Notes: generated by a model from the letters alone, not told the origin. A stretch of 64,000 nucleotides of DNA from Truepera sp. (GCA_965218435.1 CBDCKW010000009.1:1760001-1824000); one strand, 5' to 3'. Shown: positions 1 through 18,496, counted from the first letter of the stretch. Numbers and translations are program-made.

Positions 1-713
1 ACACGCTAAATAGATGAAGGATGTGCGCATAATCATTCGCAAAGTCGGGATAAATTCACACTATGATTCATTTTTATAACGACTCGTCACGTTTTCCCCC
101 TAATATCGTTCTAAACCTGGATTTACCTTAATAGGTCTTCATTTGTTTTGTTCTATCGTGGGTGATGGTTTTCGCTTCGTAAGCGAACAGAGCTGAAAAG
201 GTTGATATACCTTACTTTGATATGCACACCCCTCAAATAGATAGTCGTCATCTCAGCCCACGCTCATACGTTTAGAACGTGTTACGAAGCTTGAAGATTC
301 CCCAAGCCGTTTGGTCAACGCTTAGGAAATCCGTTCCAATCCGGCTTTTTACATTTTCGGCAGCATCTTTTTGGGCATGTTTGGAGCTTAAAGGCAGGCT
401 CGAGTCCGAAATGCCGAAACAGCTGAACAGTTTAGCTGCTGTGCAAGACGCAAGTTCAATAGCCATAACAGCAGTTACAATTGTCACATTTGTAACGGGC
501 TCTAGCCGTGGCAAGCATCAAGACGCCTCCTTTATAGCAAACGTTATGGGTCAGATCAGGCGGTGAGTGCTAACAGGCTCGGCAGTTCGCTTCCGTCTAT
601 CCCTTATGCTGGGACAGTATCTCTACCGGCGTTGGCCCTGAGCCCGGACATTTGTCATACCGCATGTGTGCTATAACGATAAGCGGGAAAGACACGTGAG
701 TTGGAGGAACCGT

Positions 714-1103
714 ATGACCACACAACTAAACATAACCCATATGACCGTGACCGAAGCTGCCGCCCGCAAAGCCGGTGAGCTCTTGGGTAACGCGCAAAAA
801 GAAACCGCCGCCATCCGGGTTTACGTCAAATCGGGGGGCTGCAGCGGCTACTCGTACGGGATGGCCATTGACGACCGTGAACTCGAGGGCGACAGCATCT
901 TTGTGGACCGGGGCGTCCGTATCGTCGTGGATAAGATGAGCCTGCCCCTACTTCAGGGTTCACAGATCGATTACGTCGAGAACATGATGGGCGGCGGCTT
1001 TAGCGTCAATAATCCGAACGCGACGAGCGCGTGCGGGTGCGGCAGTTCGTTTCGTACCGACGGCAAAACCGCGCCGGAAGGCGAAAGCGTCAGCTGTCAC
1101 TAA
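714..1103 (+). CDS. HesB/IscA-family Fe-S cluster assembly accessory protein
   Basis: GGCSG and CGCGSSF motifs; start moved to ATG 714 behind GGAGG; extended -10 TGcTATAAC at 669-677. Confidence 0.95.
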
Positions 1104-1110
1104 GATTTGT

Positions 1111-1153
1111 CCAAAAAAGAAGCGGCCCGCTAGCAGGCCGCTTCTTTTTTTGG
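1111..1153. terminator. Bidirectional intrinsic terminator
   Basis: aaaaaagaagcggcc-loop-ggccgcttcttttttt between convergent iscA and gcvPB. Confidence 0.9.
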
Positions 1154-1160
1154 TTGAGGT

Positions 1161-2642
1161 TTACGGCGAGGTGTAACGCAAGACCGGTTTACGCGCCGCT
1201 TTGACCTCATCCAAACGGCGTACCGGCGTGGTGTAAGGCGCGTTTTTCAAAAAGTCCGGGTCGGCTTCGGCCCGTTTTAATATGTCCGCCATGACTGCAA
1301 CAAAGGCGTCCATCGTCTCCAAGCTCTCCGTCTCAGTCGGCTCGACCATCATCGCTTCTTTGACGACCAGCGGAAAATACATCGTCATCGGGTGCATCCC
1401 GTAGTCTAAGAGTGCCTTAGCGATGTCCAAAGTCTTCATCCCTCTGGGCGGCTGCGCCACAAATTCGTGCATGTTGATGCGGTCAAACGCGGTCTTGAAG
1501 CCGACTTCTTGCAGCTTGACACGCAGATAGTTTGCGTTCAAAACGGCCCGCTCCGAAATCTGCGCCAGCCCGTCGCGGCCCAGTGCCCGAATATAGGTAT
1601 ACGCCCGCACCAAGTTGCCGAAGTTCCCATGAAACGAACGCATCCGCCCGATCGAGTACGGTTGGTCGTAGTCGAAGGCGAAGTGGTCACCCTCTTTTTT
1701 GATGATCGGTGAGGGTAGGAAATCCCGTAGATGCGCTTTGACCCCAATCGGGCCGGTGCCGGGGCCACCGCCGCCGTGGGGCGTGGTAAACGTCTTATGC
1801 AGATTGAGGTGTACCACATCGAAACCCATATCGCCGGGGCGAGCGCGGCCCACGATGGCGTTCGCGTTCGCGCCGTCGTAGTAGAGCTGTGCGCCGACCT
1901 CGTGCGCGAGGTGGGCGATTTCTAAAATGTTTGTCTCGAACAGCCCCAACGTGTTCGGGTTCGTGAGCATGATCGCCGCAACGTCCGGGCCGAGCACGGC
2001 TTTAAGGGCGTCCAAGTCAACCTCGCCGTTAGGGGCTGTCGCCACCTCTTTGACGTCGTACCCGACCATCGTTGCGGTGGCCGGGTTGGTGCCGTGCGCC
2101 GCGTCCGGGACGATGACGATGCGGCGCTGCTCGCCCTCGCCGTTGTGCTCGTGGTAGGCCCGGATCATCAAAATCCCGGCGAGTTCGCCGTGGGCACCCG
2201 CCGCTGGTTGCAAGGTGATGGCGTCCATCCCGGTGATCTCGGCGAGGTCGTATTGCAGATTATAAAGCAGTTCTAACGCGCCCTGCACGGCGTCCGGGTC
2301 GGCGTTCGGGTGCACGTCAGCGAAGAGTTTGGCGGTCTCTTCGTTGACTTTAGGGTTGTATTTCATGGTGCACGAGCCGAGCGGGTAGAAGTTGCCGTCA
2401 ATAGAGAACTGCCGGTGCGCGAGCTGGGTATAGTGGCGGACGAGTTCCAACTCCGACACTTCGGGCAGTTTAGGCGGCGCGGCGCGGAGGTGTTCAGCGC
2501 CCAGAAGACTTTCTAAGCTCTCCCCCACCGGTTTGGGCGGATACGCCGCGCGGCGGCCCGGTTGTGAGCGTTCAAAGATCAGCGGGAAGTCACCGGCTGT
2601 GTTTTCCCGAGCTAAAATTGGGCGTTCTTCAAGTTTAGTCAT
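1161..2642 (-). CDS. gcvPB: Glycine dehydrogenase (decarboxylating) subunit 2
   Basis: [19 protein letters not shown] and [18 protein letters not shown] (PLP lysine) motifs. Confidence 0.97.
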
Positions 2643-3975
2643 GGGCGACCTCGAGCCTACGCTCTAAAACTTCTGCCAAAGCGTCCGTCAGGAGCGTCAT
2701 ATCTTCTGCTGTCGTGAGTTCAGTTGCGGAGAAAAGTGCCGCGTCCCCAAGGCCGTAAGTTTTGGGAACGGGCACAGCGGCAGCGACGCCCGCTTCGGCG
2801 AGCGCGTGACGCAACTCGTCCGCAGGGAGCGGTAAACGGGCGGCAAACTCGTTAAAAAAGGGTTTTGCGGTGAGGGGCTCGAGGCCAATCTCTCTAAGTT
2901 TACCCGCTAAGGTGTGCGCGTTCTGCACACTTTTAGTTGCGACGTCGGTTAAACCTTGCGGCCCGAGCGCGGCGAGGTTTACGGCGGCCATCAGCGCGGT
3001 GAGCTGGTGGTTCGAGCAGATATTCGACTTGGCTTTCGAGCGGCGGATGTGCTGCTCTCTGGCCTGCAGCGTCAGGACAAACGCCCGTTTGCCGTCCCGG
3101 TCCGTTGTCTCGCCGACGATACGCCCCGGCAACTGCCGTAAAAGCGGCTCAGCCACGACCATAAACCCGAAGTGCGGCCCGCCAAAACTGACCGGATTAC
3201 CGACCGTCTGCCCGTCCCCGACGGCGATATCCGCGCCGTAATCACCGGGCGCGGTGAGAACACCGAGCGTTAGGGGGTCACAGACGGCGACGAAAAGAGC
3301 ACCGGCTGCGTGCGCGGCGTCAGCAAGCTTCGGCATCGCTTCTAAGTAGCCTAAAGAGTTGGGATTTTGGACGATGAGACAAGCCGCGTCCGCCACGTCG
3401 CCCGGTTCAGGCGTGCTCAGCTCAGTGAGGGCGATTTCGACAATCTCAATGTCTAGAGGATGCGCGTAGGTCGCTAACACCTCCCGCGACTCAGGATGCA
3501 CTCCTTGACTTACCACAACCTTGCGCCGCCCGGTCTGCCGCACGGCAAGAAGTGCCGCCTCTGCGACCGCTGACGCCCCGTCGTACATCGAGGCGTTGGA
3601 GACCGGCAGCCCGGTCAGCTCACTCATCATCGTCTGGTACTCGAAGGTCGCCTGCAACATCCCCTGTGAGACCTCAGGTTGATACGGCGTGTAGGCCGTG
3701 ACGAACTCACTCTGCAGCGCCAGGTGCAGCGTCACCGAGGGGATAAAGTGCTCTTGCAGACCGCCGCCTAAAAAGTTGGCTTGTGGGGTTTTGTTTTTTG
3801 CGGCGAGTGAGCGCAAATGCCGGAGCAAACTCACTTCATCTAAACCTTCGGGAATGTCTAACTCAGGGATTTTGAGCGACTTGGGCAGGTCGGCGAACAG
3901 CTCATCAATGCTTTCGACGCCGATAGTCTCGAGCGCCCGTTCGATATCTTCCGGTGTATGCGGCAAGTAGTTCAC
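2635..3975 (-). CDS. gcvPA: Glycine dehydrogenase (decarboxylating) subunit 1
   Basis: [23 protein letters not shown] and [10 protein letters not shown] motifs. Confidence 0.97.
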
Positions 3976-3982
3976 AGGTCGT

Positions 3983-4366
3983 TCACCCTGCCTCGGCGAT
4001 TTCTTGATAGGCGTCAGCGTCTAAGAGCTTCTCGAGTTCTCCGGGGTCCGACACGCGCAGCTTAAACATCCAACCGCCCTCAAAAGGTGCTGAATTGATG
4101 GTTTCGGGAGCGTCCTCTAAGGCGCTGTTGACCTCGACGACTTCACCCGAAACCGGCGCGTAGATGTCCGAGGCGGTTTTGACCGACTCGACCACAGCAA
4201 CGGCAGTTCCTGCCGTGACCGTTTGGCCGACACTGGGGAGTTCGACGAACACCACGTCTCCGAGCTGGTCTTGGGCAAAGTCGGTAATGCCGACGGTGAG
4301 GGTGTCGCCCTCGAGCCGTGACCACTCGTGCGACGCACTATATTTGAGGGCTTCAGGTAGCTGCAT
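3983..4366 (-). CDS. gcvH: Glycine cleavage system H protein
   Basis: [20 protein letters not shown] (lipoyl Lys); RBS GAGGAG. Confidence 0.97.
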
Positions 4367-4633
4367 ATAGGACTCCTCAGGTCATTCTAAAGGCAAGAAA
4401 AAGGTTTTTAGGGCACGTATGACGTACACCGTGACGGGTGCCTTGCAAAACGTACCGGCATACGCCCATAACTCCCTCAGCCTACCGGAAAGTCGTCGGG
4501 CTATGCGTTTCTCACCTTGCGTTCTCTCGGCTGTGTTGACCCTAAGCCTCACCGGTTAAGTCTTGCTGTGTGCTGATTTCGCCCGGCTCACCGTAGACCT
4601 GTTTACCGCAAACGCCCCGGCTGACCCGCCCCA

Positions 4634-4828
4634 CTAGGTACTGCGTTCGGCCTTCAGCCGCTCGGCAGCTTCTTGACTCCGCCCGGCTTTAACCAGCTCA
4701 CTGAGTTCGGTCGCGGTACGAAAATCTATCGTTTTTTGCTCGAGCGCCGCTCCGATGGCGTCCAGCGCGTCACGCTGAGCCGCAGTAAATCTAGGGCCGC
4801 GTAACGTTTGAGTGGGGTGCTGCGCCAT
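4634..4828 (-). CDS. Small hypothetical protein
   Basis: Protein-like 64-aa ORF; TATACT 6 nt before ATG (leaderless pattern). Confidence 0.6.
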   Translation of the reverse strand: MAQHPTQTLRGPRFTAAQRDALDAIGAALEQKTIDFRTATELSELVKAGRSQEAAERLKAERST

Positions 4829-4914
4829 AAGAAAAGTATAAACGCCCCCTTACCGAGCGGACAACCTCCTTATTATGGGTTAGACGCGCCTTAGCTCGAG
4901 CAAGCACCTGCAGC

Positions 4915-5142
4915 TTAGCTGTTTGGTTGCCCCTCACCGTCTGCATTGTTGGTGATGGCGTTCCACACGACGCCGCTCTTGCCCCTGGCTTCACCTTCGG
5001 TGTCTGCTTTAACCATCCGGACAACGACCTTTTCAGAGGCGTAGCTGTCCCGGGCCGCGCAGCCCTGCTTATGATCGTCAAAACGGCTTAAGAGTTTCCA
5101 CGCAGTTGTACCGCTGGGTTTTTGAAAGATAAAGTAGGGCAT
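4915..5142 (-). CDS. Small hypothetical protein
   Basis: MPYFIFQK...; TGc-TAAGGT 5 nt before ATG 5142. Confidence 0.55.
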   Translation of the reverse strand: MPYFIFQKPSGTTAWKLLSRFDDHKQGCAARDSYASEKVVVRMVKADTEGEARGKSGVVWNAITNNADGEGQPNS

Positions 5143-5243
5143 CCCCGACCTTAGCACCTAACGGGCGCTCCTGACGCTTGGAGCAACGCTACAAAACGGC
5201 GCAGACTGCTGTTTAGAGGTCTTTCTCGAGCAAAAATGCAGCT

Positions 5244-5510
5244 ATGGACAGAGCTAATGATCTCGGACCGGCAACTCTCGGCACCTTAAACGGCACCGGT
5301 TTTATGAACCGTCATCCCACCCAAGCTAGTGGTTACGTTCAGGGCGAGGGCGTTTTTATCGTCGCTGAAACGACCCGCGAGGCGGTCGAGGCGCTGATGG
5401 GCGAAGAGCTCGACTATGTAGGGCCGACCGAAGACGGCAACACCCGGGTCGCGCAGTGCCATATCGTCTCCGCCGAGGACTTTCCTACTCTCACATTTTC
5501 AAAAAGCTAA
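5244..5510 (+). CDS. Hypothetical protein
   Basis: 88-aa ORF with host-like codon usage filling the gap. Confidence 0.55.
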   Translation: MDRANDLGPATLGTLNGTGFMNRHPTQASGYVQGEGVFIVAETTREAVEALMGEELDYVGPTEDGNTRVAQCHIVSAEDFPTLTFSKS

Positions 5511-5583
5511 CCAAGACCCACCGTGTAAATCCGCCGCCGGGCTGTTACGGCGAACTGCTCGGCGGCCACAGGCTGAGGCCATT

Positions 5584-5895
5584 CTAGTGCTGCTTTTTAG
5601 CCCAGGTAAGAAACCGCTGCACCTCGGGTTCGGCTAACAGTGCCGCCCGCGTGTTGAGCCTCTTGCCAAGCTCGTTTTCGCTGTAGCTGCGGTGCAGCTG
5701 CCGGTGACACAAGCGGCAGAGCATCAGCCCACAGCCGCTGAGCTCGGCGCGACTAAAGCGCCGCGTGTACCAACCTCGGCGGTGAACACGTTTGGGAATA
5801 AGGTGGTGAAAAGTCAGCGGCTCTTCGCGTCCGCACAGTTCGCAGTAGCGGCAGCTGGCGCGGCGCGGCCCGAAATCAGTAGTTGGCGACGTCAC
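5584..5895 (-). CDS. Small HNH-like zinc-binding protein (YisB-like)
   Basis: CELCGR...TFHHLIPK...LCRLCHRQLH; TAAACT 6 nt before GTG. Confidence 0.8.
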   Translation of the reverse strand: MTSPTTDFGPRRASCRYCELCGREEPLTFHHLIPKRVHRRGWYTRRFSRAELSGCGLMLCRLCHRQLHRSYSENELGKRLNTRAALLAEPEVQRFLTWAKKQH

Positions 5896-6048
5896 CCCAT
5901 CAGTTTACAAAAACCGAAAGCGCGAGGTATTGCTCTAGCTGTCAACCGTTTAGACCAACCGTTTGGCCTCAAGACCTTGTTAGAAAAGACTTTAGAAAAT
6001 CAGACAAAGCGGCTTGCTGAGGTTTTGGCAGTGCTTGAGCTTTGTCCC

Positions 6049-6077
6049 TTGAACGAACATTCCTCAACGATTATACT
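6049..6077 (+). promoter_or_regulatory. Sigma70-type promoter of the DUF305-nuo unit
   Basis: TTGAAC-17 bp-TATACT. Confidence 0.7.
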
Positions 6078-6086
6078 TTAGCCTAA

Positions 6087-6101
6087 CCCACCCCAGGTGG
6101 G
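6087..6101. promoter_or_regulatory. C/G-tract palindrome, putative CsoR/RcnR-type operator
   Basis: CCCACC-cca-GGTGGG just downstream of the -10. Confidence 0.4.
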
Positions 6102-6122
6102 GAGAGTAAAGGGAGACAACCT

Positions 6123-6728
6123 ATGAAGCCAGTTGCCGCAACGTATTTGCTACTCAGCACTTTTTTATTCGGTGCTTTTGGCTTAGCACAACCTGCGCCG
6201 CCAACAGGACCACCCAACCAGCACCCACAGGGCGCGATGAATATGAGCAAAGCGCCAATTGGCAGTGAGCTGGACTTCATTCAGGGGATGATCCCGCATC
6301 ATCAGGAGGCCGTAGACAGCGCCCTGGTGATCGAAAAACACAGTGAGCACGCCCAACTTCGCGCCTTTGCCGGAGCTGTCGTTGGGGTTCAGCAGCGTCA
6401 GATCAGCGAAATGCGGGGATGGCTCCGGGCTTGGTATCCGAAACAAGCAAAAGCGGCGTCACCTTACCTACCGATGATGCGCACTCTGCCGAACGCCACG
6501 CCGGACGAAGCCGACCGCGCCTTTATCGAAGACATGATGACGCATCACGAGATGGCGATAGCGATGGCTCGAGAGTTTCTAGCCGGGGACTTCAAAAAGC
6601 ATCCCAAAGCCGAGGCGCTCGCAAGAGACATTATGTCTACCCAAGCCGCCGAAGTCGGTACCTTACGCGGCTGGTTGCGACGTTGGTACGGCGTCAAAGT
6701 AGACGCCACTACAAACACACACGGCTAG
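6123..6728 (+). CDS. Secreted DUF305 protein (CopM-like ferritin fold)
   Basis: Signal peptide; two repeats FIQGMIPHHQEAV and FIEDMMTHHEMAIAMA. Confidence 0.9.
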   Translation: MKPVAATYLLLSTFLFGAFGLAQPAPPTGPPNQHPQGAMNMSKAPIGSELDFIQGMIPHHQEAVDSALVIEKHSEHAQLRAFAGAVVGVQQRQISEMRGWLRAWYPKQAKAASPYLPMMRTLPNATPDEADRAFIEDMMTHHEMAIAMAREFLAGDFKKHPKAEALARDIMSTQAAEVGTLRGWLRRWYGVKVDATTNTHG

Positions 6729-6824
6729 GCACACTAGAGATAGGTTTTGATAGGTCTTGCAAGGGGCAGGGCTCGAGCCAACTGGGGGTTTATGAACGGG
6801 CAAGTCAGACCACCGGTAAAGGTG

Positions 6825-6872
6825 TTCTTAACAGTGTTGTTCACGCTATTCTTCACACTGGTTTTCACACTA
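6825..6872 (+). repeat. 4 x 12-bp degenerate tandem repeat
   Basis: ttcttaacagtg/ttgttcacgcta/ttcttcacactg/gttttcacacta. Confidence 0.7.
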
Positions 6873-6883
6873 AGGGAAAAAGC

Positions 6884-7201
6884 ATGACCGTTAACAGCTA
6901 CGCCGTGGTAGGGCTGCTCGCCCTTATCGCCGCCGGGCTCGCGCTCCTCGGCGCAGCTTTCTGGAGACCTAAAGCCAAACTCTTAAAAGCGCCCGCAGCG
7001 TGGGCACAGTTTCGCTTCGGTTACGTCGTCTACGCGCTGATCTTTCTCTCATTCGACATGGAGATGATCTACATGTACCCGTGGGCGGTGGTGTTCGTGG
7101 AACGGGGCCTCGAGGCATTTTTAGACATGCTCGTCTTTATCGCCATTCTTTCTGCGGGCATCGCTTACGCCTGGGGGATGGGGGGGCTCGAGTGGGAGTA
7201 G
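6884..7201 (+). CDS. nuoA: NADH-quinone oxidoreductase subunit A-like (short loop)
   Basis: ALIFLSFDMEMIYMYPWA and C-terminal YAW..GGLEWE; start ATG 6884 within the longer ORF. Confidence 0.9.
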   Translation: MTVNSYAVVGLLALIAAGLALLGAAFWRPKAKLLKAPAAWAQFRFGYVVYALIFLSFDMEMIYMYPWAVVFVERGLEAFLDMLVFIAILSAGIAYAWGMGGLEWE

Positions 7202-8091
7202 TCACGGGTGCTCTTTTTGTCCTCGCAACGCTGCTCGTCGGGGGCTTGGGAACGATGGGGCTCGAGCACCTTATGCGCCGCCGCGCCGAGTTAGGTCCGG
7301 CTACGACGCCGAGTATTCGGGAAGATGTCAAACTCCTTCAGGCTGACCGCTGGCTCTATCCGGCGGGGACGGTTTCAGCTTTGCTGGGCATCTTTTTTGC
7401 GCTAGTCGTGATTCCTTTCGGCCCCGGTCTTATCGCTCAGGACATCGGTATCGGGGCGTTTTACTTTATCGTCGTGCTGGACTTTGTGGTACTCGGGGTC
7501 GCGCTCACGGGTTGGGGCACAAATATACCGGACGCCGTAGACGCCTACTACCGCATCACCGCGCAGCTCGTCGCCTACGTCGTCCCACTGGGTCTCGCTT
7601 ATGTCGGGGCCATCATGATGGCTGAGTCTCTGTCTATTGTCACCATCGTTGAGCGGCAGAACAGCTTGTGGTTTGTCTTCCTGCAACCCATCGGTTTCTT
7701 GCTCTACCTCGTAACCGGATTGATGCAGGCTTACCGTGCGCCCTTTATGGAACCGTTTTCTAAGTTCATCGGAGGTGGCGTGCTCGGCGCTGTCGGTGGC
7801 TGGCAGGCGCTCGTATGGCGTTTTGCGCTCGCCGGTCTGCTCTTTGCCATTGCCGCGATGGGGGCTGTACTTTACTTGGGCGGCCCGCAGGGGCCGTGGC
7901 TACCCGCGCCGGTTTGGATGCTCGTTAAAACGTTTGGGCTGATGGCCTTGATGCTCGGCCTGGGGCGACTCGTCAAACCTTTAAGCACCGCGCAGATGCT
8001 CCAACTCTCGTGGCGCATCCTGATTCCTATTGGTCTGGTCAATGTGTTGGTCGTCGGCGGGCTGATTCTTTTAGGCGTAGGTCCCACATGA
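7192..8091 (+). CDS. nuoH: NADH-quinone oxidoreductase subunit H-like (divergent)
   Basis: VIPFG, RxxAQLVAY, RAPF, LYLGG, LSWRILIP motifs; GTG 7192 overlaps the nuoA end. Confidence 0.85.
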   Translation: MGVVTGALFVLATLLVGGLGTMGLEHLMRRRAELGPATTPSIREDVKLLQADRWLYPAGTVSALLGIFFALVVIPFGPGLIAQDIGIGAFYFIVVLDFVVLGVALTGWGTNIPDAVDAYYRITAQLVAYVVPLGLAYVGAIMMAESLSIVTIVERQNSLWFVFLQPIGFLLYLVTGLMQAYRAPFMEPFSKFIGGGVLGAVGGWQALVWRFALAGLLFAIAAMGAVLYLGGPQGPWLPAPVWMLVKTFGLMALMLGLGRLVKPLSTAQMLQLSWRILIPIGLVNVLVVGGLILLGVGPT

Positions 8092-8960
8092 TTCTAGGCG
8101 CGACCGCACAGGTGTTCGCCTTTGCTCTCTTGTCACTGATCGCCATTTTGGGGGCGCTCGGCATGGCGACGACGATGAGCATGTTTCGGAGCGGTATCTT
8201 CCTGATGGCGTCGTTTATCGGCGTGTCGGGGCTCTTTATCCTCCTCTCCGCCGACCTTTTGGGACTGTTACAAATCATGATGTATATCGGCGGGATGCTG
8301 GTGATGGTGCTTTTTATGGTGCTCTTAATGCATGACCCCGGCGGCAGCATGATGGCGGGGATGGACATGGCCCCGGTTGAAAACTTCTTTAGCCGAGGAC
8401 TGCTCCCCAAAGACGAAGGAGAGGTTGAGGCGGCTCGAGTCGATAACTTAGGTCAAAATGCTGAAGACGAAAGTGACGAGCAGCAAGGTTATCAGCATAG
8501 AAATCATCAGCATGAAGGTCATGACATATCAGCTGACGGGCACGGTAATGGGGATAGTCAGCAAGAGCACGAACATAGCGATATGAACCACGACGACATG
8601 GACATGGGCGATATGGACATGTCTATGGTGACGCCCGTCCGTTCTTACGCGGCGTGGCTCGGGCTCGGTACGGGCGCACTGCTCGTTTTACTCCTCTTGT
8701 TGCGCCCCGCTTGGCCGGTCGCGGACGCACTCCCTGATCCTGACTCGGCGCAGCAGGTCGGCAACCTTTTGATGAGCAAATACATGATGGCGTTCGAGGG
8801 CGCGGGCTTGCTTATCTTGGTCGGTATCTTCGGCGCGGTCTACATCGCACGGCCTGACCGTCATCCGTCGGCGAAGGGACGTGAGGTGCATGTCGGGCAA
8901 GACGAAATGCCTAGTGAACTCGAGGATGACACCTTGAAACCGCTGAGGGACAACGCATGA
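8088..8960 (+). CDS. nuoJ: NADH-quinone oxidoreductase subunit J-like with His/Met-rich insert
   Basis: QIMMYIGGMLV (TM3) and GNLLMSKYMMAFE (TM5); ATGA overlap with nuoH. Confidence 0.88.
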   Translation: MILGATAQVFAFALLSLIAILGALGMATTMSMFRSGIFLMASFIGVSGLFILLSADLLGLLQIMMYIGGMLVMVLFMVLLMHDPGGSMMAGMDMAPVENFFSRGLLPKDEGEVEAARVDNLGQNAEDESDEQQGYQHRNHQHEGHDISADGHGNGDSQQEHEHSDMNHDDMDMGDMDMSMVTPVRSYAAWLGLGTGALLVLLLLLRPAWPVADALPDPDSAQQVGNLLMSKYMMAFEGAGLLILVGIFGAVYIARPDRHPSAKGREVHVGQDEMPSELEDDTLKPLRDNA

Positions 8961-9268
8961 TTCTCCCCTTGACAGCTTTTTTAAGCGTTGCTGCCATCCT
9001 CTTCGGCATCGGTGTCTACACCGTCATCGCGCAGCGTTCAGCCGTGATGATTCTGATGGGCGTCGAGGTCCTCTTAAACGCCGTCGGCCTTAACATCGTG
9101 GCCTTCTGGCGTTTTGTCGCCCCTTCAGACTACTCCGGACAGATTTTTCTGATCATCATCGTGACGTTAGGTGCGGTCGAGATGGGCATTGGGCTCGCCA
9201 TTATGATGATGCTCTACCGCAACCGGCAGACCGCACAGGTTGACGATTTTACGGAATTAAAAGGGTGA
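8957..9268 (+). CDS. nuoK: NADH-quinone oxidoreductase subunit K
   Basis: MGVEVLLNA, GQIF, GAVEMGIGLA; both conserved Glu retained. Confidence 0.93.
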   Translation: MILPLTAFLSVAAILFGIGVYTVIAQRSAVMILMGVEVLLNAVGLNIVAFWRFVAPSDYSGQIFLIIIVTLGAVEMGIGLAIMMMLYRNRQTAQVDDFTELKG

Positions 9269-11190
9269 CGGCGCTCCTGATCGCTGTGCCGCTTATGCCC
9301 TTATTAGCTGCACTTGTGATTCCTCTAGGGCAACGTCTGCCAAGCGGCTGGGTGAGCGCGGGCGCGACGGGCGTTTCATTGGCACTTTTACTCGCCCTGT
9401 TCGGGTCGCACCTCAGCATGACGGCGACATGGTTAGGGGTCGGCACTTACACCCTCACAGTTGGGCTCAGCCTGGACCCGCTTTCATATCTGCTGGCGCT
9501 CTTAGTCGCAGGCGTTGGTTTCCTCGTGGGGGTGTACGCAGTCGGGTATATGGCCGATGAACAAGGCAAGCCGCGTTTTTACAGCACCTTGTCATTTTTT
9601 ATCGGAGCGATGCTGACCCTCGTCCTCAGCAATTCGCTGGTGCTGCTGTTCGCCGCTTGGGAGAGTGTCGGGCTGGCGTCGTATCTGCTGATTGGCTTCT
9701 GGTATACCCAAACTGACGCGAAAGAAGCGGCGCGTAAAGCCTTCCTGATGACCCGCTTAGGCGATCTTGGCTTGCTGCTCGGCTGGTTACTCCTGCTCCT
9801 AACGGTTGGCACAACGGATATTCAGACCGTTTTAGGTGCGGTGGGAACAGGTTTGCCTGCAGGCATTGCCACACTCGCGGCTTTTCTCTTGCTTTTGGGA
9901 GCACTCGGTAAGAGCGCACAGCTTCCACTTACAGCTTGGCTCCCTGACGCGATGGCTGGGCCGACACCCGTGTCGGCGCTGATCCACTCGGCCACGATGG
10001 TCGCGGCGGGTGTGTATCTGCTGCTGCGCTTATTCCCACTCTACGAAGCGGCTCCGGGCATCCTCACCGTTGTGCTCTGGTTGGGCGCGCTTACGGCACT
10101 TTTTGCGGCGCTCGTCGCTACGGTGCAAACCGACCTTAAGCGCGTTTTGGCGTGGTCTACGGTGTCACAGCTCGGTGAGATGTTTTTTGCAATCGGTTTG
10201 GGCAGCGCATTTGCCGCAGCCTTTCATTTGGCAATGCACGCACTGTTTAAGTCGGTACTGTTTCTCACGGCGGGTGCGGTCGAGCATATCGTCGGCGGTT
10301 ACGACCTGCGGAAGATGGGCGGGTTGTGGCGACAGCTGCCCCTCACAGCTGGGGTGTTTGCCGCAGCGGGCTTGACGCTGGCGGGGTTTCCGCCTTTTTC
10401 TGCGTTTTGGAGTGAAGAGGCGATTTTGGCTCGAGCCGCGTCTGTTAGCCCATTTGCTGGGGCATTTTTCTTGCTGCTTATCTTTCTTGCCGGGGTGTAT
10501 ATCAGTCGGGCGGGAGTCGCAGCGTTTCTAAGTTGGCCGGGTGCGCCGAAACCAACCGAGAAAAAACCGAGCGTGTGGCTGGCTCTACCGATGCTTGTTC
10601 TGGCTGTGCTTACACTCGGCGCGGGCTGGGTATCGAAGGGGCCGCTCGAGTCCTTCCTCCCCTTTCCTCAACCGCCGGAAGCTCACACGACCTGGACGCT
10701 CTGGGCTGTCGCCGCAAGTGTTTTAGGGCTCGTCTTTGGAAGTTGGCGAACGTTGCAACATGGCCTCGTACCGACTTTTGGCAGGTTTCCGGTGGGGTTG
10801 GGGCACGGCCTCAACGTTCTGACCTCTACGCCCGTGACGATAGTGCATACGGTTTCGGCAGGTGTAAACGGGCTCGAGCACACCCTTGATGCTTTCGTCA
10901 GACAGCTTGCAAGCGGCACTCTTATGCTAACGGGCAGCCTAAACCGTGCTGAGAGTAGCTTTGATAGGGGGGCTCGAGGTTTCGCGTCTATAACTCTAAG
11001 AACTGCTACCGGAACCGAGAAAGCTGAACAAAGGGGATTCTCAAGAGGTGGCGACGCTTTCGCACGCCTCTTCAGCCGTTCCGGGCAGCGGCTACGCACC
11101 ACTGAGAGCGGCAAACTTTATCTTTATACGCTTGTCCTGTTCGTCTGGGTCGCAGGGGTCGTCGTCGGAGGCGTGCTGCTGTGGTGGTAA
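9265..11190 (+). CDS. nuoL: NADH-quinone oxidoreductase subunit L / MrpA-like antiporter subunit
   Basis: WESVGLASYLLIGFW, GKSAQLPL..WLPDAMAGPTPVSALIHSATMV. Confidence 0.93.
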   Translation: MTALLIAVPLMPLLAALVIPLGQRLPSGWVSAGATGVSLALLLALFGSHLSMTATWLGVGTYTLTVGLSLDPLSYLLALLVAGVGFLVGVYAVGYMADEQGKPRFYSTLSFFIGAMLTLVLSNSLVLLFAAWESVGLASYLLIGFWYTQTDAKEAARKAFLMTRLGDLGLLLGWLLLLLTVGTTDIQTVLGAVGTGLPAGIATLAAFLLLLGALGKSAQLPLTAWLPDAMAGPTPVSALIHSATMVAAGVYLLLRLFPLYEAAPGILTVVLWLGALTALFAALVATVQTDLKRVLAWSTVSQLGEMFFAIGLGSAFAAAFHLAMHALFKSVLFLTAGAVEHIVGGYDLRKMGGLWRQLPLTAGVFAAAGLTLAGFPPFSAFWSEEAILARAASVSPFAGAFFLLLIFLAGVYISRAGVAAFLSWPGAPKPTEKKPSVWLALPMLVLAVLTLGAGWVSKGPLESFLPFPQPPEAHTTWTLWAVAASVLGLVFGSWRTLQHGLVPTFGRFPVGLGHGLNVLTSTPVTIVHTVSAGVNGLEHTLDAFVRQLASGTLMLTGSLNRAESSFDRGARGFASITLRTATGTEKAEQRGFSRGGDAFARLFSRSGQRLRTTESGKLYLYTLVLFVWVAGVVVGGVLLWW

Positions 11191-11221
11191 CGAAATCTAA
11201 AACGCTCATTGCGGGGGCATC

Positions 11222-12691
11222 ATGCTGAGTATCACCATTTTTTTACCGCTCCTGACGGGGCTCGTCGTCCTAGCCTTACCCAATGTCCGGGCAATACGCT
11301 GGACGGCCCTCGCCGGGTCGCTGCTGACGCTCCTTTTCACGCTTATTTTGTGGGCGGGCTATAACCCAACCGGTTCACAGCTTCAGTGGCACGCGGCGGC
11401 TCCGTGGATTCCAAGTATTGGGGCGAGTTACGACTTGGCGGTTACCGGTCTTTCGCTCCCACTTATGGTTCTCACCGCGCTGCTGCTCAGCCTGACGATG
11501 GTTTATGTGTTGCCCGAGCACGACCGGGCGAAAGCGCACGCGTTTTTGTTCCTGCTGATGGGCACAGGGTTACTCGGTCTGTTCGGGGCTCGAGACCTGC
11601 TCCTCTTCTACCTTTTTTTCGAGGTTGCCCTCGTCCCGATGTACTTTATCGTCGGCATCTGGGGGGGCGAGAACCGGCGGTACGCCGCGCTCAAGTTCTT
11701 TCTCTATACCCGCGTCGGCAGCCTCGCCATGCTGCTGAGCTTTTTGGCACTCTATCTGGCAAGCGGCCGCAGCTTTTCACTCGCTGAGATCAGCACAGCG
11801 CAACCCTTTGCGGGTTCAGGGACCGGATTTTGGGTCTTTTTGGGCTTACTGCTCGGTTTCGGCGTAAAACTGCCGACGGTGCCGCTCCACAACTGGCTCC
11901 CCGATGCCCACGTCGAAGCGCCGACCGAGGGCAGCGTGATGCTCGCCGGAATTCAGCTCAAGATGGGCGCGTACGGCTTTTTAGCCATTATGCTGCCAAC
12001 CTTGCCCGACACGGTGCGGCAATACGCCTGGCTCCTGATGCTCTTGGCGCTGGTGTCGCTCGTTTACGGCGCGCTAGCGGCGCTCGCGCAGAGCGACCTC
12101 AAACGGCTGATCGCCTACACCTCGGTCAATCACATGGGTTTTGTGCTTCTAGGGGTGGCGGTGTGGGGGCTCTCGAGTGACCCCGGCGTCCGGCAGCTCG
12201 CCCTGAGCGGCGCGGTGTTGCAGACCATCAGCCACGGGCTTTTGACGGGCGGGATGTTCTTTCTGGCAGGGATTTTGCAGCATCAGGCAGGCACACGGGA
12301 GCTGGCGCGTTTTGGCGGACTACTGGGAAAGGTGCCGGGATACAGCGGTCTTTTGGGCCTCTTGGCGTTTGGTTCGTTGGGATTACCGGGGCTTTCGGGT
12401 TTCGTCGCCGAGTTTCAGGTCATCGGCGCAACCTTGTCGGTCAATATCTGGTTCGCGCTGGTCGCGGTTTTGGGGCTGATCATCTCGACGGCGCTCTACC
12501 TCAAGGTGTTGACTGCTCTGCTGATGGGCACGCCGCCTGACGATATGCCCACGGTGCGTGAGCTGAATCCGCGTGAGGCGACCGCTGTGATTCCGCTGGC
12601 TGTTCTGTCGCTGACGATTGGGTTGCTACCGGGACCATTTTTACGCGTGTTGGGGACAACTGTTCGCGCTCTAGCTCGGCTCGGAAGCTAG
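11222..12691 (+). CDS. nuoM: NADH-quinone oxidoreductase subunit M
   Basis: FFEVALVPMY, KLPTVPLHNWLPDAHVEAPT, KMGAYG, GFVAEF. Confidence 0.94.
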   Translation: MLSITIFLPLLTGLVVLALPNVRAIRWTALAGSLLTLLFTLILWAGYNPTGSQLQWHAAAPWIPSIGASYDLAVTGLSLPLMVLTALLLSLTMVYVLPEHDRAKAHAFLFLLMGTGLLGLFGARDLLLFYLFFEVALVPMYFIVGIWGGENRRYAALKFFLYTRVGSLAMLLSFLALYLASGRSFSLAEISTAQPFAGSGTGFWVFLGLLLGFGVKLPTVPLHNWLPDAHVEAPTEGSVMLAGIQLKMGAYGFLAIMLPTLPDTVRQYAWLLMLLALVSLVYGALAALAQSDLKRLIAYTSVNHMGFVLLGVAVWGLSSDPGVRQLALSGAVLQTISHGLLTGGMFFLAGILQHQAGTRELARFGGLLGKVPGYSGLLGLLAFGSLGLPGLSGFVAEFQVIGATLSVNIWFALVAVLGLIISTALYLKVLTALLMGTPPDDMPTVRELNPREATAVIPLAVLSLTIGLLPGPFLRVLGTTVRALARLGS

Positions 12692-12695
12692 CGAG

Positions 12696-14135
12696 ATGGA
12701 GTGCATGGACCTCTGGGCCATCGTCCCAGAGCTGATCTTAGCTGGTTTCGCGCTGCTACTCGTCCCGGTTGCCGGTCTGAGCAAAGGACGCGGGCAAAAC
12801 GTCGTGGTGTTTTTAGCGGTGTGCGGGCTTATCGCGGCGACTGTGTTTAGCGTACGGATGCTCCTCTGGAGAGACCAAGCCGTCTTTTGCGGGACCTACG
12901 CCGTAGACGGTTTCGGTACGGTGTTTAAGCTTCTGATTTTGTTCGGGGCACTCCTGTCACTTTTGGCTATCGGCGCACATTTCCGGGGGACGGGCAAAGA
13001 AGGACACGCCGCCGTCGCCTTGCTCTTTTCGACCCTGGGCGGGGTGTTGGCGGCCTCGAGCCTTGACTTAGGTCTCATCGTGCTCTTTTTACAGCTGCTC
13101 AGCATGGCCTCGTACATCTTAGTGGCGCTGGTACGAACCAATAGGGAGGCAAACGAGGCGGCGCTCAAATACTTTATCTACGGGGCGGTGGCGCTGGCGG
13201 TGATGGCTTACGGGCTTTCGTTTTTGTACGGCCTCACTGGAAGCCTCTCACTACCGGCAATTGGAGGAAGCTTGCGCAGTGCCGATGGCGTCTGGGTGGC
13301 GCTCGCCTTTGGTTTTGTCTTGATCGGCTACGCCTTTGAGATTACGGCGGTGCCCTTTCACTTCTGGGCACCCGACGTATACACCGGCGCTTCTGCGCCC
13401 GTCACCGGGTTTTTGTCGGTTGTACCTAAACTGGCGGGCTTTGCGGCGCTCTTGCGGTTTCTCCTCGTCGCGCTCCCCGGCGGTATGGCGGCGTGGCCGC
13501 TCGCGGTGGCGATTTTGGCCGCTCTCACCATGACGCTCGGCAATCTAGTTGCCTTGCGGCAAACACGGCTCAAACGGCTGTTGGCTTACTCGAGCATCGC
13601 CCAAGCGGGGTATGTGCTGATGGCCGCGGCCGTTTCTGAGCGCGTACCCTCAGCTCTGGGCGCCGCTGGCTACTACCTGCTCGCGTACTCCCTGATGAAT
13701 CTCGGAGCGTTCGTGGTGGCGGCGCAGCTCGAGCGCCTCACCGGGAGCGACGAATTACGGGGCTTGCGGGGTCTGGGCCAACGCTCGCCGCTGGCGGCTG
13801 TGGGCCTCACCTTGTCCCTTTTATCCCTGGCGGGTATTCCGCCGCTCGCAGGGTTTGCCGGGAAGGTACTCCTCTTAGACGTCACCCTCTCCGGTGGTCT
13901 AACCTGGCTGGCCGTCGTCGGTGTATTGAACTTCGCTGTGGCGCTCTACTACTACCTCTTGCCGATTGTTGAGATGTACCTGCGTGCGCCGGAAACCACA
14001 GACCGTGTTCCTAATTGGCCGGGGTATCTCGTGGCGCTCGGCGTCAGCGTTTTCGGCACGCTTTTGATCGGTATCTTGCCAAGCACCGTACTCAGCGTGA
14101 CGCAGCACCTCTCGAGGGTTTTTAACAAAGGCTAA
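12696..14135 (+). CDS. nuoN: NADH-quinone oxidoreductase subunit N
   Basis: EAALKYF, PFHFWAPDVYTGA, KRLLAYSSIAQAGY, GIPPLAGFAGK. Confidence 0.93.
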   Translation: MECMDLWAIVPELILAGFALLLVPVAGLSKGRGQNVVVFLAVCGLIAATVFSVRMLLWRDQAVFCGTYAVDGFGTVFKLLILFGALLSLLAIGAHFRGTGKEGHAAVALLFSTLGGVLAASSLDLGLIVLFLQLLSMASYILVALVRTNREANEAALKYFIYGAVALAVMAYGLSFLYGLTGSLSLPAIGGSLRSADGVWVALAFGFVLIGYAFEITAVPFHFWAPDVYTGASAPVTGFLSVVPKLAGFAALLRFLLVALPGGMAAWPLAVAILAALTMTLGNLVALRQTRLKRLLAYSSIAQAGYVLMAAAVSERVPSALGAAGYYLLAYSLMNLGAFVVAAQLERLTGSDELRGLRGLGQRSPLAAVGLTLSLLSLAGIPPLAGFAGKVLLLDVTLSGGLTWLAVVGVLNFAVALYYYLLPIVEMYLRAPETTDRVPNWPGYLVALGVSVFGTLLIGILPSTVLSVTQHLSRVFNKG

Positions 14136-14261
14136 GACACCTCGCTTCAAAGTGCTAGACGGCCGTGACAAAGGAGTGTTTTTAGAAAGGTTTCCGGCAC
14201 TTGGGTGCTACTTTACTTTTATCCCTTACGTTTTGCGGCGACTACCCGGTGCGGGGTTCTG

Positions 14262-14293
14262 GTTCTTACCGTGCCAAGTTCTTACCGTGCCAA
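14262..14293 (+). repeat. Perfect 16-bp tandem duplication
   Basis: gttcttaccgtgccaa x2. Confidence 0.9.
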
Positions 14294-14319
14294 GTAGAGC
14301 AGACCCCGTAAACTAAGGG

Positions 14320-14460
14320 ATGACCCCCGCCGCGCCGATCGCCGAATGGGAGCAAGTGACTACTGAGAATGTCGCCACTCAAAGCCACTTTTCAAGCTTC
14401 TATTGTCGTTTGACTAAATCAAAAGCTTGTATCTATCTGGCTTGTAAGGGTGCCTTGTGA
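14320..14460 (+). CDS. Putative 46-aa leaderless ORF overlapping the R-M gene start
   Basis: TAAACT 5 nt before ATG; open to TGA forming a GTGA overlap with 14457. Confidence 0.35.
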   Translation: MTPAAPIAEWEQVTTENVATQSHFSSFYCRLTKSKACIYLACKGAL

Positions 14461-17400: not shown

Positions 17401-17645
17401 AGACGGGGCGCGTCTACCTCAACCAGACGCAATACTTTGATGGGGTGCCGGTAAAGGTTTGGAACTTTTACGTGGGTGGGTATCAGGTGTGTCAAAAGTG
17501 GCTTAAAGACCGCAAGGGGCGCACGCTTTCGTATGACGACCTGCGGCACTACGGCTTTATCGTTTCGGCACTGTTTGAAACCATCGGCGTGATGGGTGAG
17601 GTTGATACGGCGATAGAAGGGGCTGGAGGGTGGCCTTTAGCTTAG
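14457..17645 (+). CDS. Single-chain restriction-modification enzyme (type IIG / ISP-like; nuclease + N6-adenine MTase + TRD)
   Basis: N-terminal PD...IEAK nuclease motif, GVYYTPEPVV, LDPATGTATFL (SAM), GNPPY (catalytic), C-terminal GGYQVCQKWLKDRK; no helicase domain. Confidence 0.9.
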   Translation: MTFDEYQASLEADFKRGNATEHTYRGTLKALLESKFPGIVATNEPKRISAGAPDYVISRGETPLGYIEAKDLGRLDNPTDREKEQLGRYLGSLGNLIYTDYLEFRWFVEGQHRLTARLASINGKGLRVEPDGAQNLEMLLKGFLGVTAPTIKSPSALARKMAALAQQIRHTILGAFNAEDLTDDHPDPLHDQYQAFREVLLSDLTPTQFADMYAQTITYGMFAARTSPNFTPPFTRYKAAYDIPKTNPFLRTVFRQMVGPELESSVDWIVDDLVNLLAHADIGAILQDFGTRTRTEDPVVHFYETFLAAYDPKMREARGVYYTPEPVVSYIVRSVDHILKKDFGLRDGLADTSKVRVIDPEQRSQKDRKTKDVHKVQILDPATGTATFLHAVIDQIHSTIVGQTGGNKGLWSGYVKNHLLPRLHGFELLMAPYTVAHMKLGLQLAELGYDFDSNERLKIYLTNALEEAHQFPSLPLFGQAIARESQEAGQVKQDAPVMVVLGNPPYSYASSNNGEWISKIIRDYYTVDGQPLGERNPRGLQDDYVKFLRFSQWRIEQTGYGVLGFVTAHGYLDNPTFRGMRQSLMNTFDDLYVLDLHGNSNKKERTPDGGKDENVFDIMQGVSIGIFIKKPSSLEKRVYKADLYGSRADKYKTLWESDISKTEWKEVNPQTPFYLFASQQEDIWDEYKVWNKITEIMLTHSVGILTSRDELTIKFSQEEVLRTVKDFIKLSEEDVRRTFNLPEDSRDWKISYAQEDLRNSKISDANVLPISYRPFDTKYTYFTGKSRGFHSTPRTNVMKHMRRDNLALLTSRLTKGEKFAHALATKHLSEKILLSAKTSNNSFHFPLYLYPDTSNLFDIGVRRPNLAPEFTAEFAEKVGLEFIGDGQGDLTSTFGPEDVFHYIYAVFHAPSYRERYAEFLKIDFPRVPLTSSLGLFRTLTAYGETLVALHLMERVGSPISSYPVDGDNIVDKVSFSENEDGKTGRVYLNQTQYFDGVPVKVWNFYVGGYQVCQKWLKDRKGRTLSYDDLRHYGFIVSALFETIGVMGEVDTAIEGAGGWPLA

Positions 17646-17785
17646 CGTCCGCAAGTAAGGCTCGAGGCGGCTGCCTACCAGCTGCACGTCTGCTCTTTGG
17701 GGCGTTACCGGCTTATGCTTGATAAAATCTGGTAAAGAATTTTAGGACGTCCTCGAGATAGTTTTGCAGCACCTGCCAAAGCAAC

Positions 17786-17813
17786 AGCCCCGCTGAGCGC
17801 GGGCTTCTTTTTT
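17786..17813 (+). terminator. Intrinsic terminator
   Basis: agccc-cgctgagcgc-gggct followed by a T-tract. Confidence 0.6.
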
Positions 17814-17834
17814 GCGTGCTGCACGTGCTTTTTC

Positions 17835-17909
17835 TGGTGGGCGGTATAGGGATTGAACCTACGACCCCTCGCGTGTGAAGCGAGTGCTCTCCCGCTGAGC
17901 TAACCGCCC
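17835..17909 (-). tRNA. tRNA-Val(CAC)
   Basis: GGGCGGTTAGCTCAG...CTCGC-TTCACAC-GCGAG...GGTTCAATCC...CCGCCCACCA; encoded CCA. Confidence 0.97.
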
Positions 17910-17923
17910 GGACTGAGCACATC

Positions 17924-18475: not shown

Positions 18476-18496
18476 CTTTAGCCTAGAGGAGACCTG

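What the first reader, a model, noticed from the sequence alone, without database searches (positions are those of the whole stretch)
6884..8091. NuoH and NuoA have lost the quinone-site and coupling motifs
Seen: the NuoH TM5-6 loop reads RAPFMEPFSKFIGGG where the canonical motif is RxPFDLxEAESELVxG. The SYE motif reads AYV. The N-terminal ERK...QxRxGP/ADxxKL region is shortened to EHLMRRRAELGPATTPSIRED. The NuoA TM1-2 loop lacks YECG but keeps FDxE. Known: these elements line the quinone cavity and E-channel and dock NuoB/D. Inference: no coupling to quinone reduction, with A and H retained as a structural cap. This argues against a swap-in membrane arm.
Basis: partly seen in the sequence, partly recalled or inferred. 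Interest (0 to 1): 0.8.

Follow-up and report, generated by a model that had tools for sequence, protein, structure and literature searches.

The report
Copper-regulated, redox-free complex I arm
Seven genes encode only the membrane half of respiratory complex I, with its quinone-docking motifs lost, new methionine-lined helices gained and a predicted copper-sensor binding site in front, so it likely works as a proton-driven copper exporter and not as a respiratory enzyme.

Summary
NuoH and NuoA belong to a stand-alone nuoA-H-J-K-L-M-N operon; the genome's only NuoB and NuoD lie in a separate, complete complex I operon. The quinone-site and docking motifs are lost across 43 NuoH relatives under purifying selection (dN/dS about 0.09 to the nearest), so this is not decay, and a swap-in arm is unlikely. 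'Structural cap' undersells it: NuoH gains an invariant membrane Asp at the Thermus Nqo8-E130 position, NuoA keeps D79/E81, and NuoA/J/K gain invariant methionines at the place where Mrp binds its cation. The promoter carries a 16-bp match to the Thermus CsoR operator; the only other exact copy of its core in the genome lies between csoR and copA. CopM heads the operon, 23 of 32 relatives have copper/metal genes nearby, and sister forms keep a cysteine-less NuoB-NuoD remnant, often with heavy-metal-binding domains. Best reading: a Cu(I)/H+ antiporter built from complex I (0.6; transport untested). The gene set is in print as a 'marine adaptation' proton pump; I found no copper reading in print. 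This scan noted the family before on other DNA (six notes).

The parts
6049..6077 (+). sigma-70-like promoter (TTGAAC-17-TATACT), consensus match only
   Evidence: 3 sites found in the region, 2.5 expected in shuffles: weak on its own
6086..6107 (+). predicted CsoR operator; 18 of 22 bases match the T. thermophilus CsoR site, 16 in a row (6087-6102), 9 bases after the -10 box
6123..6728 (+). CopM/DUF305 metallochaperone, first gene of the predicted operon
   Evidence: NCBIfam NF049983 96.1 bits, cut-off 90; Pfam DUF305
6884..7201 (+). nuoA-like, 105 aa; TM1-2 loop shortened (6965-7003); FDMEMIYMYPW with D58, E60 and gained M59, M61, M64 (7052-7084)
7192..8091 (+). nuoH-like, 299 aa; quinone-entry helix deleted (7264-7326), gained D97 (7480-7482), SYE to AYV (7573-7581), de-acidified TM5-6 loop (7735-7779)
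8088..8960 (+). nuoJ-like, 290 aa; methionine stripe in TM3 (8268-8345), Y59 kept (Y66), 98-residue His/Met/Asp/Glu-rich insert after TM3 (8334-8627), M229/M233 in TM5
8957..9268 (+). nuoK-like, 103 aa; E36/E72 kept (E37, E75), gained M31 and M76
9265..11190 (+). nuoL-like antiporter subunit; E144, K229, K342 kept; TM12 K399 replaced by Glu (E384, 10414-10416)
11222..12691 (+). nuoM-like antiporter subunit; E144, K234, K265, E407 all kept
12696..14135 (+). nuoN-like antiporter subunit; TM5 E133 to Gln (13092-13094), TM7 K217 to Glu (13338-13340), K247 and K395 kept

Best explanation
The seven genes encode a complex I membrane arm that has lost its quinone-site and docking motifs and gained methionines in NuoA/J/K, and it likely works as a copper-induced, proton-driven Cu(I) exporter. 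Shown: gene set, motif loss, purifying selection, methionine gains, CopM, operator-like site, copper neighbours. Inferred steps: (1) Cu(I) releases the genome's CsoR from the site at 6086-6107 and copM-nuoAHJKLMN is transcribed; (2) the His/Met/acidic loop of NuoJ, on the cytoplasmic side where the redox arm would dock, gathers Cu(I); (3) the ion moves along J-TM3 M81/M77/M73/M70 (with J M32, K M31/M34/M76) to a mid-membrane site made of A D58/E60, J Y66, K E37/E75 and H D97, the spot where Mrp holds Na+/K+; (4) protons running inward through L/M/N drive its release through A M61/M64, J M64/M65/M229/M233; (5) CopM likely takes it up outside. NuoH would serve both as a plug for the old quinone cavity and as donor of one carboxylate.
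For: Architecture: window-type loci read A-H-J-K-L-M-N with A abutting H and no B/C/D/I hit (17 other genome/plasmid loci, three of them duplicates; 50 metagenome loci L046-L095, many cut by contig ends); the genome has one NuoB and one NuoD, both in its full operon. Methionine gains shared by all three forms, which are about 35% identical in NuoH: A M59/M61/M64 71 of 71 vs 0 of 13 canonical; J M65/M73/M77 69 of 69 vs 0 of 24; J M32 69 of 69 vs 1 of 24; J M233 68 of 69 vs 0 of 24; K M31 54 of 54 vs at most 2 of 22; K M76 51 of 54 vs 0 of 22. Met per J-TM3: 1.7 canonical, 8.4, 9.0, 5.6 in the three forms; seven control helical stretches of L/M/N show no shared gain. J M70/73/77/81 fall on the Y66 face of the helix. 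In Mrp the bound cations sit between E706a (= NuoJ Y59), H37c/H40c (NuoK glutamates) and E137d (TM5 Glu) (PMC7419157, passages); N-TM5 Glu is lost in 52 of 53 family members. CusA is a precedent for a methionine ladder in a proton antiporter (PMC7558416, passages). Operator: 16 consecutive bases equal the T. thermophilus CsoR site (PMC10318464, passage); the 15-bp core has 2 exact copies in 4.8 Mb, here and between csoR and copA (0 in 3 shuffles); 40 of 128 family genomes carry it (reversed control in 8); 26 of 30 fetched copies lie within 1.5 kb of csoR, copA, copZ or CopM-type genes and 1 more lies about 45 bases before nuoA of this operon in G259. Neighbours within 5 kb: 23 of 32 window-type loci, 0 of 8 canonical loci, 4 of 477 10-kb tiles of the genome; 14 of 19 actinobacterial sister loci; Rubrobacter plasmids have CopM, Cu-ATPase, CsoR and CopZ-type genes upstream on the same strand. 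Sister form II carries heavy-metal-binding domains (PF19335, like the N-terminus of Legionella CopA, 8OVL) between its NuoB and NuoD remnants. A model of H+A+K+J scored 0.73 against a best control of 0.28 (mark reached by 116 of 157 solved complexes and 2 of 215 mismatched pairs; runs agree in at least 80% of contacts; partner pLDDT 56-59) and puts H D97 against J I63; the pass is expected from likeness to solved complex I.
Against: No transport, binding or expression measurement exists. 9 of 32 window-type and 5 of 19 sister loci showed no copper gene with my queries, and the queries were drawn from these same flanks, which favours the family over the controls; related loci are not independent. 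Most relatives show no CsoR-like site within 1.5 kb of nuoA (8 of 49 with a loose pattern, up to about 5 expected by chance). The genome already has a CopA-type ATPase, so a 2,400-residue second exporter needs a reason. I had no coordinates, so a continuous methionine path is inferred from canonical topology and a contact list only. P1B ATPases, CsoR and His/Met loops also serve Zn, Cd, Ni, Co or Ag. NuoL K399, a key residue, is replaced by E/D/A/G in 34 of 34 window-type sequences and the N-TM5/TM7 ion pair is broken, so how protons would drive the A/J/K site is not clear. The direction (export) rests on CsoR logic only.
Confidence: 0.6

Rival explanations
1. A copper-induced Na+(K+)/H+ antiporter or proton conduit that protects pH or membrane potential under metal stress; the methionines and the NuoJ loop sense copper and gate the J-TM3 switch but do not carry it across.
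For: Closest functional relative, Mrp, moves Na+/K+ at the same site; published reading is a Na+/H+ pump for marine adaptation; NuoL has a carboxylate pair E384/E385 and NuoN a TM7 Glu that could hold a hard cation; copper regulation alone does not name the substrate.
Against: Methionines lie on both predicted halves of the membrane, not only at the cytoplasmic face; the genome has two other antiporter-subunit genes at C9:244-248 kb that look like a separate Mrp (identity as Mrp not checked further); hosts include non-marine Deinococcus, Methylobacterium, Rubrobacter.
Confidence: 0.2
2. A soft-metal transporter with another direction or substrate: uptake or re-routing of copper to storage and cuproenzyme assembly, or export of Ag/Zn/Cd/Ni/Co.
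For: Neighbours include copper-storage (DUF326), SCO, DUF411 and, on one plasmid, Co/Ni and CzcA-type efflux genes; the genome's CsoR has His where most have the second Cys, a type recalled as less selective.
Against: A repressor site of the copA type implies induction in excess; Met-only ligand sets favour Cu(I)/Ag(I) (general knowledge); CueR, CopB, multicopper oxidase and Cu-ATPase neighbours are copper-specific by family.
Confidence: 0.13
3. A swap-in membrane arm that pairs with the canonical NuoB/C/D/I and N-module under copper stress.
For: All 10 Deinococcota hosts tested have a NuoB elsewhere, as does this genome; NuoH keeps the fold (TM-score 0.80-0.81 to NdhA and E. coli NuoH).
Against: Docking and quinone-site motifs are absent in 43 of 43 NuoH and 46 of 46 NuoA; the J insert (35-199 residues) sits where the arm would dock; sister forms carry their own dead B-D remnant in cis, and keep D213/E220/E228 and NuoA K46 only in those forms.
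Confidence: 0.04
4. A decaying duplicate of complex I.
For: Some relatives are frameshifted or split (L041 A/H, L043 H, L033 M, L096); patchy presence (11 of 364 genomes of the phylum).
Against: dN/dS window vs L030: A 0.063, H 0.088, J 0.11, K 0.064, L 0.108, M 0.08, N 0.068; medians 0.19-0.38 and no pair above 0.72; 63-93% identity across phyla; new invariant residues.
Confidence: 0.01

Closest known systems
Partial NDH-1 operon nuoAHJKLMN ('partial 2', marine adaptation genes) of Salinispora, Kocuria flava S43 and marine Streptomyces (PMC3314556, PMC6002675, PMC6676996, PMC8622039; passages read)
   Same: Same seven genes in the same order, extra to a full complex I, judged horizontally acquired. 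Their 'hypothetical protein' between nuoA and nuoH matches the position of the B-D remnant in my forms I/II; I did not fetch those strains' sequences, so the link is by gene order.
   Different: Read in print as a Na+/H+ pump for seawater, untested; in the passages seen no link of these genes to copper, no motif loss, no methionines. The window's form has no gene between A and H and has the long NuoJ insert.
Respiratory complex I (NDH-1, NuoA-N), membrane arm; nearest sampled canonical relative is an 11-subunit ABCDHIJKLMN operon (L174)
   Same: All seven membrane subunits, fold of NuoH, A D79/E81, J Y59, K E36/E72, most L/M/N axis residues.
   Different: No redox modules; quinone cavity and docking loops lost; N E133, N K217 and L K399 changed; methionine gains; copper operator.
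Mrp cation/proton antiporter (PMC7419157)
   Same: Redox-free complex of antiporter-like subunits with a J/K-like module; the family's changes map to Mrp's cation site.
   Different: Three antiporter subunits of Nuo type plus NuoA and NuoH, no MrpB/E/F/G; Mrp's E706a and H37c/H40c are Tyr and Glu/Glu here; substrate predicted to be a soft metal.
CusA (heavy-metal RND) methionine ladder (PMC7558416)
   Same: Proton-driven Cu(I)/Ag(I) export along membrane methionines, by analogy only.
   Different: Unrelated fold and ancestry; no outer-membrane channel or adaptor in this operon.
Ehr complexes and group 4 hydrogenases (recalled; Mbh subunits were top PDB hits of the B-D remnant)
   Same: Complex I relatives with NuoB/NuoD-like subunits lacking the usual catalytic site.
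   Different: Recalled Ehr complexes keep Fe-S subunits and lack NuoA; here even the N2 ligands are gone and the window's form has no soluble subunit.

Membership tests
Respiratory complex I (NDH-1) | Q-module NuoB/C/D/I with cluster N2 in the operon or available as partner | tested here: not met
   None in the operon or in window-type loci; the single genomic set belongs to the full operon
Respiratory complex I (NDH-1) | NuoH quinone-cavity and docking motifs (QxRxGP, D63 helix, E157, acidic TM5-6 loop, R286/R291) | tested here: not met
Respiratory complex I (NDH-1) | NuoA TM1-2 loop [YF]E[SC]G | tested here: not met
   0 of 46 vs 13 of 13
Respiratory complex I (NDH-1) | Seven membrane subunits with A D79/E81, J Y59, K E36/E72 | tested here: met
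Respiratory complex I (NDH-1) | Complete central axis in L, M, N (GluTM5, LysTM7, TM8, TM12) | tested here: not met
   M complete; L K399 and N E133/K217 replaced
Mrp antiporter | MrpA-G subunit set including B, E, F, G | tested here: not met
   NCBIfam best hits are NuoL/M/N, above cut-off for TIGR01974/1972/1770, far below for Mrp models; no further genes in the operon
Mrp antiporter | Cation/proton exchange activity | not testable with these tools
   needs vesicle assays
Partial nuoAHJKLMN operon (Penn and Jensen 2012) | Seven membrane genes alone, beside a full complex I elsewhere | tested here: met
Partial nuoAHJKLMN operon (Penn and Jensen 2012) | Hypothetical gene between nuoA and nuoH | tested here: not met
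   A overlaps H in the window; the gene is present in sister forms I/II
Partial nuoAHJKLMN operon (Penn and Jensen 2012) | Common ancestry with the Salinispora/Kocuria sequences | tested here: inconclusive
   All three forms are one clade, support 1.0, but the published strains were not in the tree
CsoR regulon (Thermus type) | G/C-tract pseudo-palindrome at the promoter matching the site of the genome's csoR-copA | tested here: met
CsoR regulon (Thermus type) | CsoR binding and copper-dependent release | not testable with these tools
   needs gel shift and RT-qPCR

The most novel reading that the evidence does not exclude
A new class of metal transporter: the whole membrane arm of respiratory complex I rebuilt into a Cu(I)/H+ antiporter, in which the J-TM3 switch that normally reports quinone chemistry has become a methionine-lined copper channel, and in which evolution can be read in steps (11-subunit complex, then cofactor-less B-D remnant with metal-binding domains, then no soluble subunit and the metal-binding loop moved into NuoJ).
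Probability: 0.55. Interest if true: 0.92.

Novelty: new variant of a known kind. Interest (0 to 1): 0.78.

Why it matters
No member of the complex I/Mrp superfamily is known to me to move a transition metal, and the ten literature searches run here found none. If right, this adds a class of copper exporter that is mobile across Deinococcota, Proteobacteria, Cyanobacteria and Actinomycetota and is now annotated as NADH dehydrogenase or as a marine adaptation gene. It is also a natural experiment on an open question, how the complex I membrane arm couples the J-TM3 switch to the L/M/N axis: a seven-gene, cofactor-free version with defined swaps (N E133 lost, N K217 and L K399 to Glu, one carboxylate supplied either by H-TM3 or by J-TM3) can be expressed and assayed directly.

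Tried and rejected
Sequencing runs: no RNA holder listed; no reads were laid. A 31-codon hydrophobic ORF at 6792-6887 overlapping the nuoA start has no Pfam match and no similar ORF before nuoA in the relatives checked: left out of the system. A loose CsoR-type pattern upstream of nuoA in relatives gave 8 of 49 loci, near chance. Terminator scan: 11 found, 12.9 expected, none between copM and nuoA; uninformative. GC and GC3 of the operon do not differ from the genome, so composition gives no sign of recent transfer; a DNA search in four congeners showed only scattered short matches and did not define an insertion site. AlphaFold models are of modest confidence (NuoH pLDDT 61.6, NuoJ 69.4) and gave no coordinates, so the cavity could not be measured. 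The weak NuoI hit at window 48270-49379 is an unrelated multi-ferredoxin protein. Two papers sought by id were not held (the T. thermophilus complex I crystal structure paper; the Nitrosococcus oceani genome paper, recalled as mentioning a membrane-only nuo set): not seen. Literature searches found the gene set but no copper or motif-loss reading; the library lacks most subscription journals and no supplements were read. Rows dropped before counts: duplicates L006, L009, L037; frameshifted or split L041 (A, H), L043 (H), L033 (M), L039 (N), L096; sequences under set lengths; near-identical sequences. G686 (unpublished) is in the tally only (30 of 351 with it, 29 without); no other claim rests on it.

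Full report
Setting. The window is G000:C9:1760001-1824000; its nearest named relatives are Trueperaceae. On the + strand lie copM (6123-6728; NF049983 above cut-off) and nuoA, H, J, K, L, M, N (6884-14135), overlapping or closely spaced. The genome (100% complete) has two NuoH genes but one NuoB and one NuoD, both in a complete nuoA-N operon 1.6 Mb away.

Observation. With E. coli K-12, the genome's own complex I and metagenome operons as controls, NuoH D63, E157, E216, E218 (E/D), E241, R286 and R291 are in 27 of 27 canonical and 0 of 43 window-type sequences; the TM5 Glu (26 of 27) is Gln in 43 of 43. The E36-D79 stretch is 16 residues shorter and the TM5-6 stretch holds 1.7 acids against 6.0. 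The NuoA loop motif is in 13 of 13 canonical and 0 of 46 relatives, while D79 and E81 are kept in all. The AlphaFold model keeps the NuoH fold (TM-score 0.80-0.81 to NdhA and E. coli NuoH) with no confident structure at residues 32-52 or 182-196 (mean pLDDT 61.6).

Not decay. A search found 415 proteins at E<=1e-10 among 7,999 scored, the best 120 at 63-93% identity, with names from Methylobacterium, Methylorubrum, Rhodopseudomonas and Deinococcus; 11 of 364 genomes of the phylum carry it and it occurs on plasmids. Nei-Gojobori dN/dS against the nearest relative L030 is 0.063 (A), 0.088 (H), 0.11 (J), 0.064 (K), 0.108 (L), 0.08 (M), 0.068 (N); over pairs with dS 0.1-1.5 (H: 677 of 903; A: 543 of 1035) medians are 0.27 and 0.24. 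Within H, TM3 is 0.11, TM4 0.16, the TM5-6 loop 0.26 and the N-terminal loop 0.54.

Three forms. Form III (window): A abuts H; no B/C/D/I hit in any locus. Form II (Paracoccus, Sulfitobacter, Nitratireductor, Rubrobacter plasmids): a gene between A and H made of a NuoB-like domain, 0-5 heavy-metal-binding domains with His-rich linkers, and a NuoD/MbhL-like domain; 679 such proteins at E<=1e-15 among 8,000 scored. Form I (Actinomycetota): the same remnant without those domains (of 20 loci fetched, 19 are forms I/II, 17 with a BLAST hit for the remnant, and 1 is canonical). In the 20 remnants aligned none keeps the N2 cysteine motifs, and in the 7 aligned the quinone-site HxxxH is gone. In H, M, N and concatenated FastTree trees (59 taxa, 11 canonical, rooted on E. 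coli) the three forms are one clade with support 1.0 on a long stem, I and II are sisters, and the nearest canonical taxon is an 11-subunit ABCDHIJKLMN operon (sparse canonical sampling, so the donor is not established). Forms I/II keep H D213/E220/E228 and mostly A K46; form III, without the remnant, has lost them.

What was gained. A M59/M61/M64 (71 of 71 vs 0 of 13), J M65/M73/M77 (69 of 69 vs 0 of 24), J M32, M70, M233, K M31, M76 and N M170 are shared by all forms; control stretches in L/M/N show no shared gain. J M70/73/77/81 lie on the Y66 face, in the cytoplasmic half of TM3 that rotates in complex I (PMC7434922, PMC10212512; passages). Form III adds a His/Met/acidic insert after J-TM3 (98 residues here; 35-199 in 43 sequences), disordered in the model. 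H D97 (43 of 43; also invariant in 55 of 55) aligns with T. thermophilus Nqo8 E130, named as an E-channel residue beside Nqo10 Y59. Forms I/II lack D97 but have Glu at J62 and Met at J59 (25 of 25), so each lineage places one extra carboxylate beside J-TM3. A four-chain model (H, A, K, J) scored 0.73 against 0.28 for the best control (mark reached by 116 of 157 solved and 2 of 215 mismatched pairs; contacts agree at least 80%; partner pLDDT 56-59) and lists H97-J63 and H94-J64 as contacts; likeness to solved complex I can explain the pass. In Mrp, cations bind between E706a (J Y59), H37c/H40c (K glutamates) and E137d (TM5 Glu) and leave along TMH5d, TMH3c, TMH21a (PMC7419157): the same helices that are altered here. 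N E133 is lost in 52 of 53; in form III N K217 is Glu (28 of 28) and L K399 is E/D/A/G (34 of 34); M is intact.

Copper link. Just after a -10 consensus (6072-6077) lies a 22-base stretch with 18 matches, 16 in a row, to the T. thermophilus CsoR site given in PMC10318464. I defined its 15-base core by comparing the window with the csoR-copA intergenic region, so its two exact copies in the genome are partly by construction; the independent tests are the published site, 40 of 128 family genomes against 8 for the reversed pattern, and 26 of 30 fetched copies next to csoR/copA/copZ/CopM-type genes, with one more about 45 bases before nuoA in G259 and three next to nothing recognised. Copper or metal genes lie within 5 kb in 23 of 32 window-type loci with at least 3 kb of flank (50 examined), 0 of 8 canonical loci (30 examined) and 4 of 477 genome tiles (identities; queries came from these flanks), and in 14 of 19 sister loci. 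Against: most relatives show no operator near nuoA, and CopA is already present.

Mechanism. Most likely a CsoR-controlled Cu(I)/H+ antiporter (0.6): capture by the J loop (or by the metal-binding domains of the B-D remnant in form II), passage along the methionines to the A/J/K/H carboxylate site, release driven by inward proton flow through L/M/N, hand-over to CopM. All transport steps are inferred; topology is taken from canonical complex I. Rivals: copper-gated Na+/H+ or pH homeostat (0.2), other metal or direction (0.13), swap-in arm (0.04), decay (0.01).

Known and new. The gene set is published as a partial NDH-1 operon and marine adaptation marker (PMC3314556, PMC6002675, PMC6676996, PMC8622039; passages only; 'copper' does not occur in the main text of the first and fourth, and the second lists copD separately without linking it). 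It fails membership of complex I and of Mrp on defining features but works, on this reading, like Mrp with a soft-metal site. Ten searches found no copper or motif-loss reading in print; subscription journals and supplements were not seen. Six earlier notes of this scan on other genomes reach a similar reading; my reading was logged before I saw them, and they are not counted as support. What this window adds is the match to an experimentally defined CsoR operator, the D97/J-E62 exchange, and dN/dS. Interest 0.78; new variant of a known kind, and a new transporter class if transport is shown.

Noticed in passing
window 6792-6887 +: 31-codon ORF with a hydrophobic stretch and a 4-base overlap with the nuoA start; no Pfam match, not seen in relatives.
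   Followed up: yes
window 14457-17645 + and 17835-17909 -: Type ISP-like restriction-modification protein (N6_Mtase, Type_ISP_C) followed by tRNA-Val(CAC), in a lower-GC stretch right after the operon: possible integration site.
   Followed up: partly
window 1161-4366 -: Genes that read like a glycine cleavage system (P1, P2, H) upstream of the operon; named from sequence, not scanned. Rfam found no riboswitch in 1-20000.
   Followed up: no
window 5584-5895 -: Small HNH-like protein (below Pfam cut-off) divergent from copM.
   Followed up: no
window 48270-49379 +: Multi-ferredoxin protein with a weak LdpA-type Fe-S domain match; gave the only extra NuoI-like hit in the genome.
   Followed up: partly
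window 24143-27316 +: 1057-aa protein after two LptF/G-like genes, no Pfam match at E<=0.001; looks like an LptD-type outer-membrane protein.
   Followed up: no
G000 C9:244270-248307 -: Two further antiporter-subunit genes, probably an Mrp operon.
   Followed up: no
L015:8044-9267 -: An extra partial NuoN-like gene upstream of the form II operon on a Sulfitobacter plasmid, beside a heavy-metal ATPase.
   Followed up: no
L035 and L037 (G041), L034 and L039 (G065): Two Deinococcaceae genomes carry two copies of the form III operon.
   Followed up: no
form III NuoN, window residues 3 and 65: Two cysteines conserved in 86% of form III NuoN and absent from canonical NuoN; possible disulfide or metal site.
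   Followed up: no
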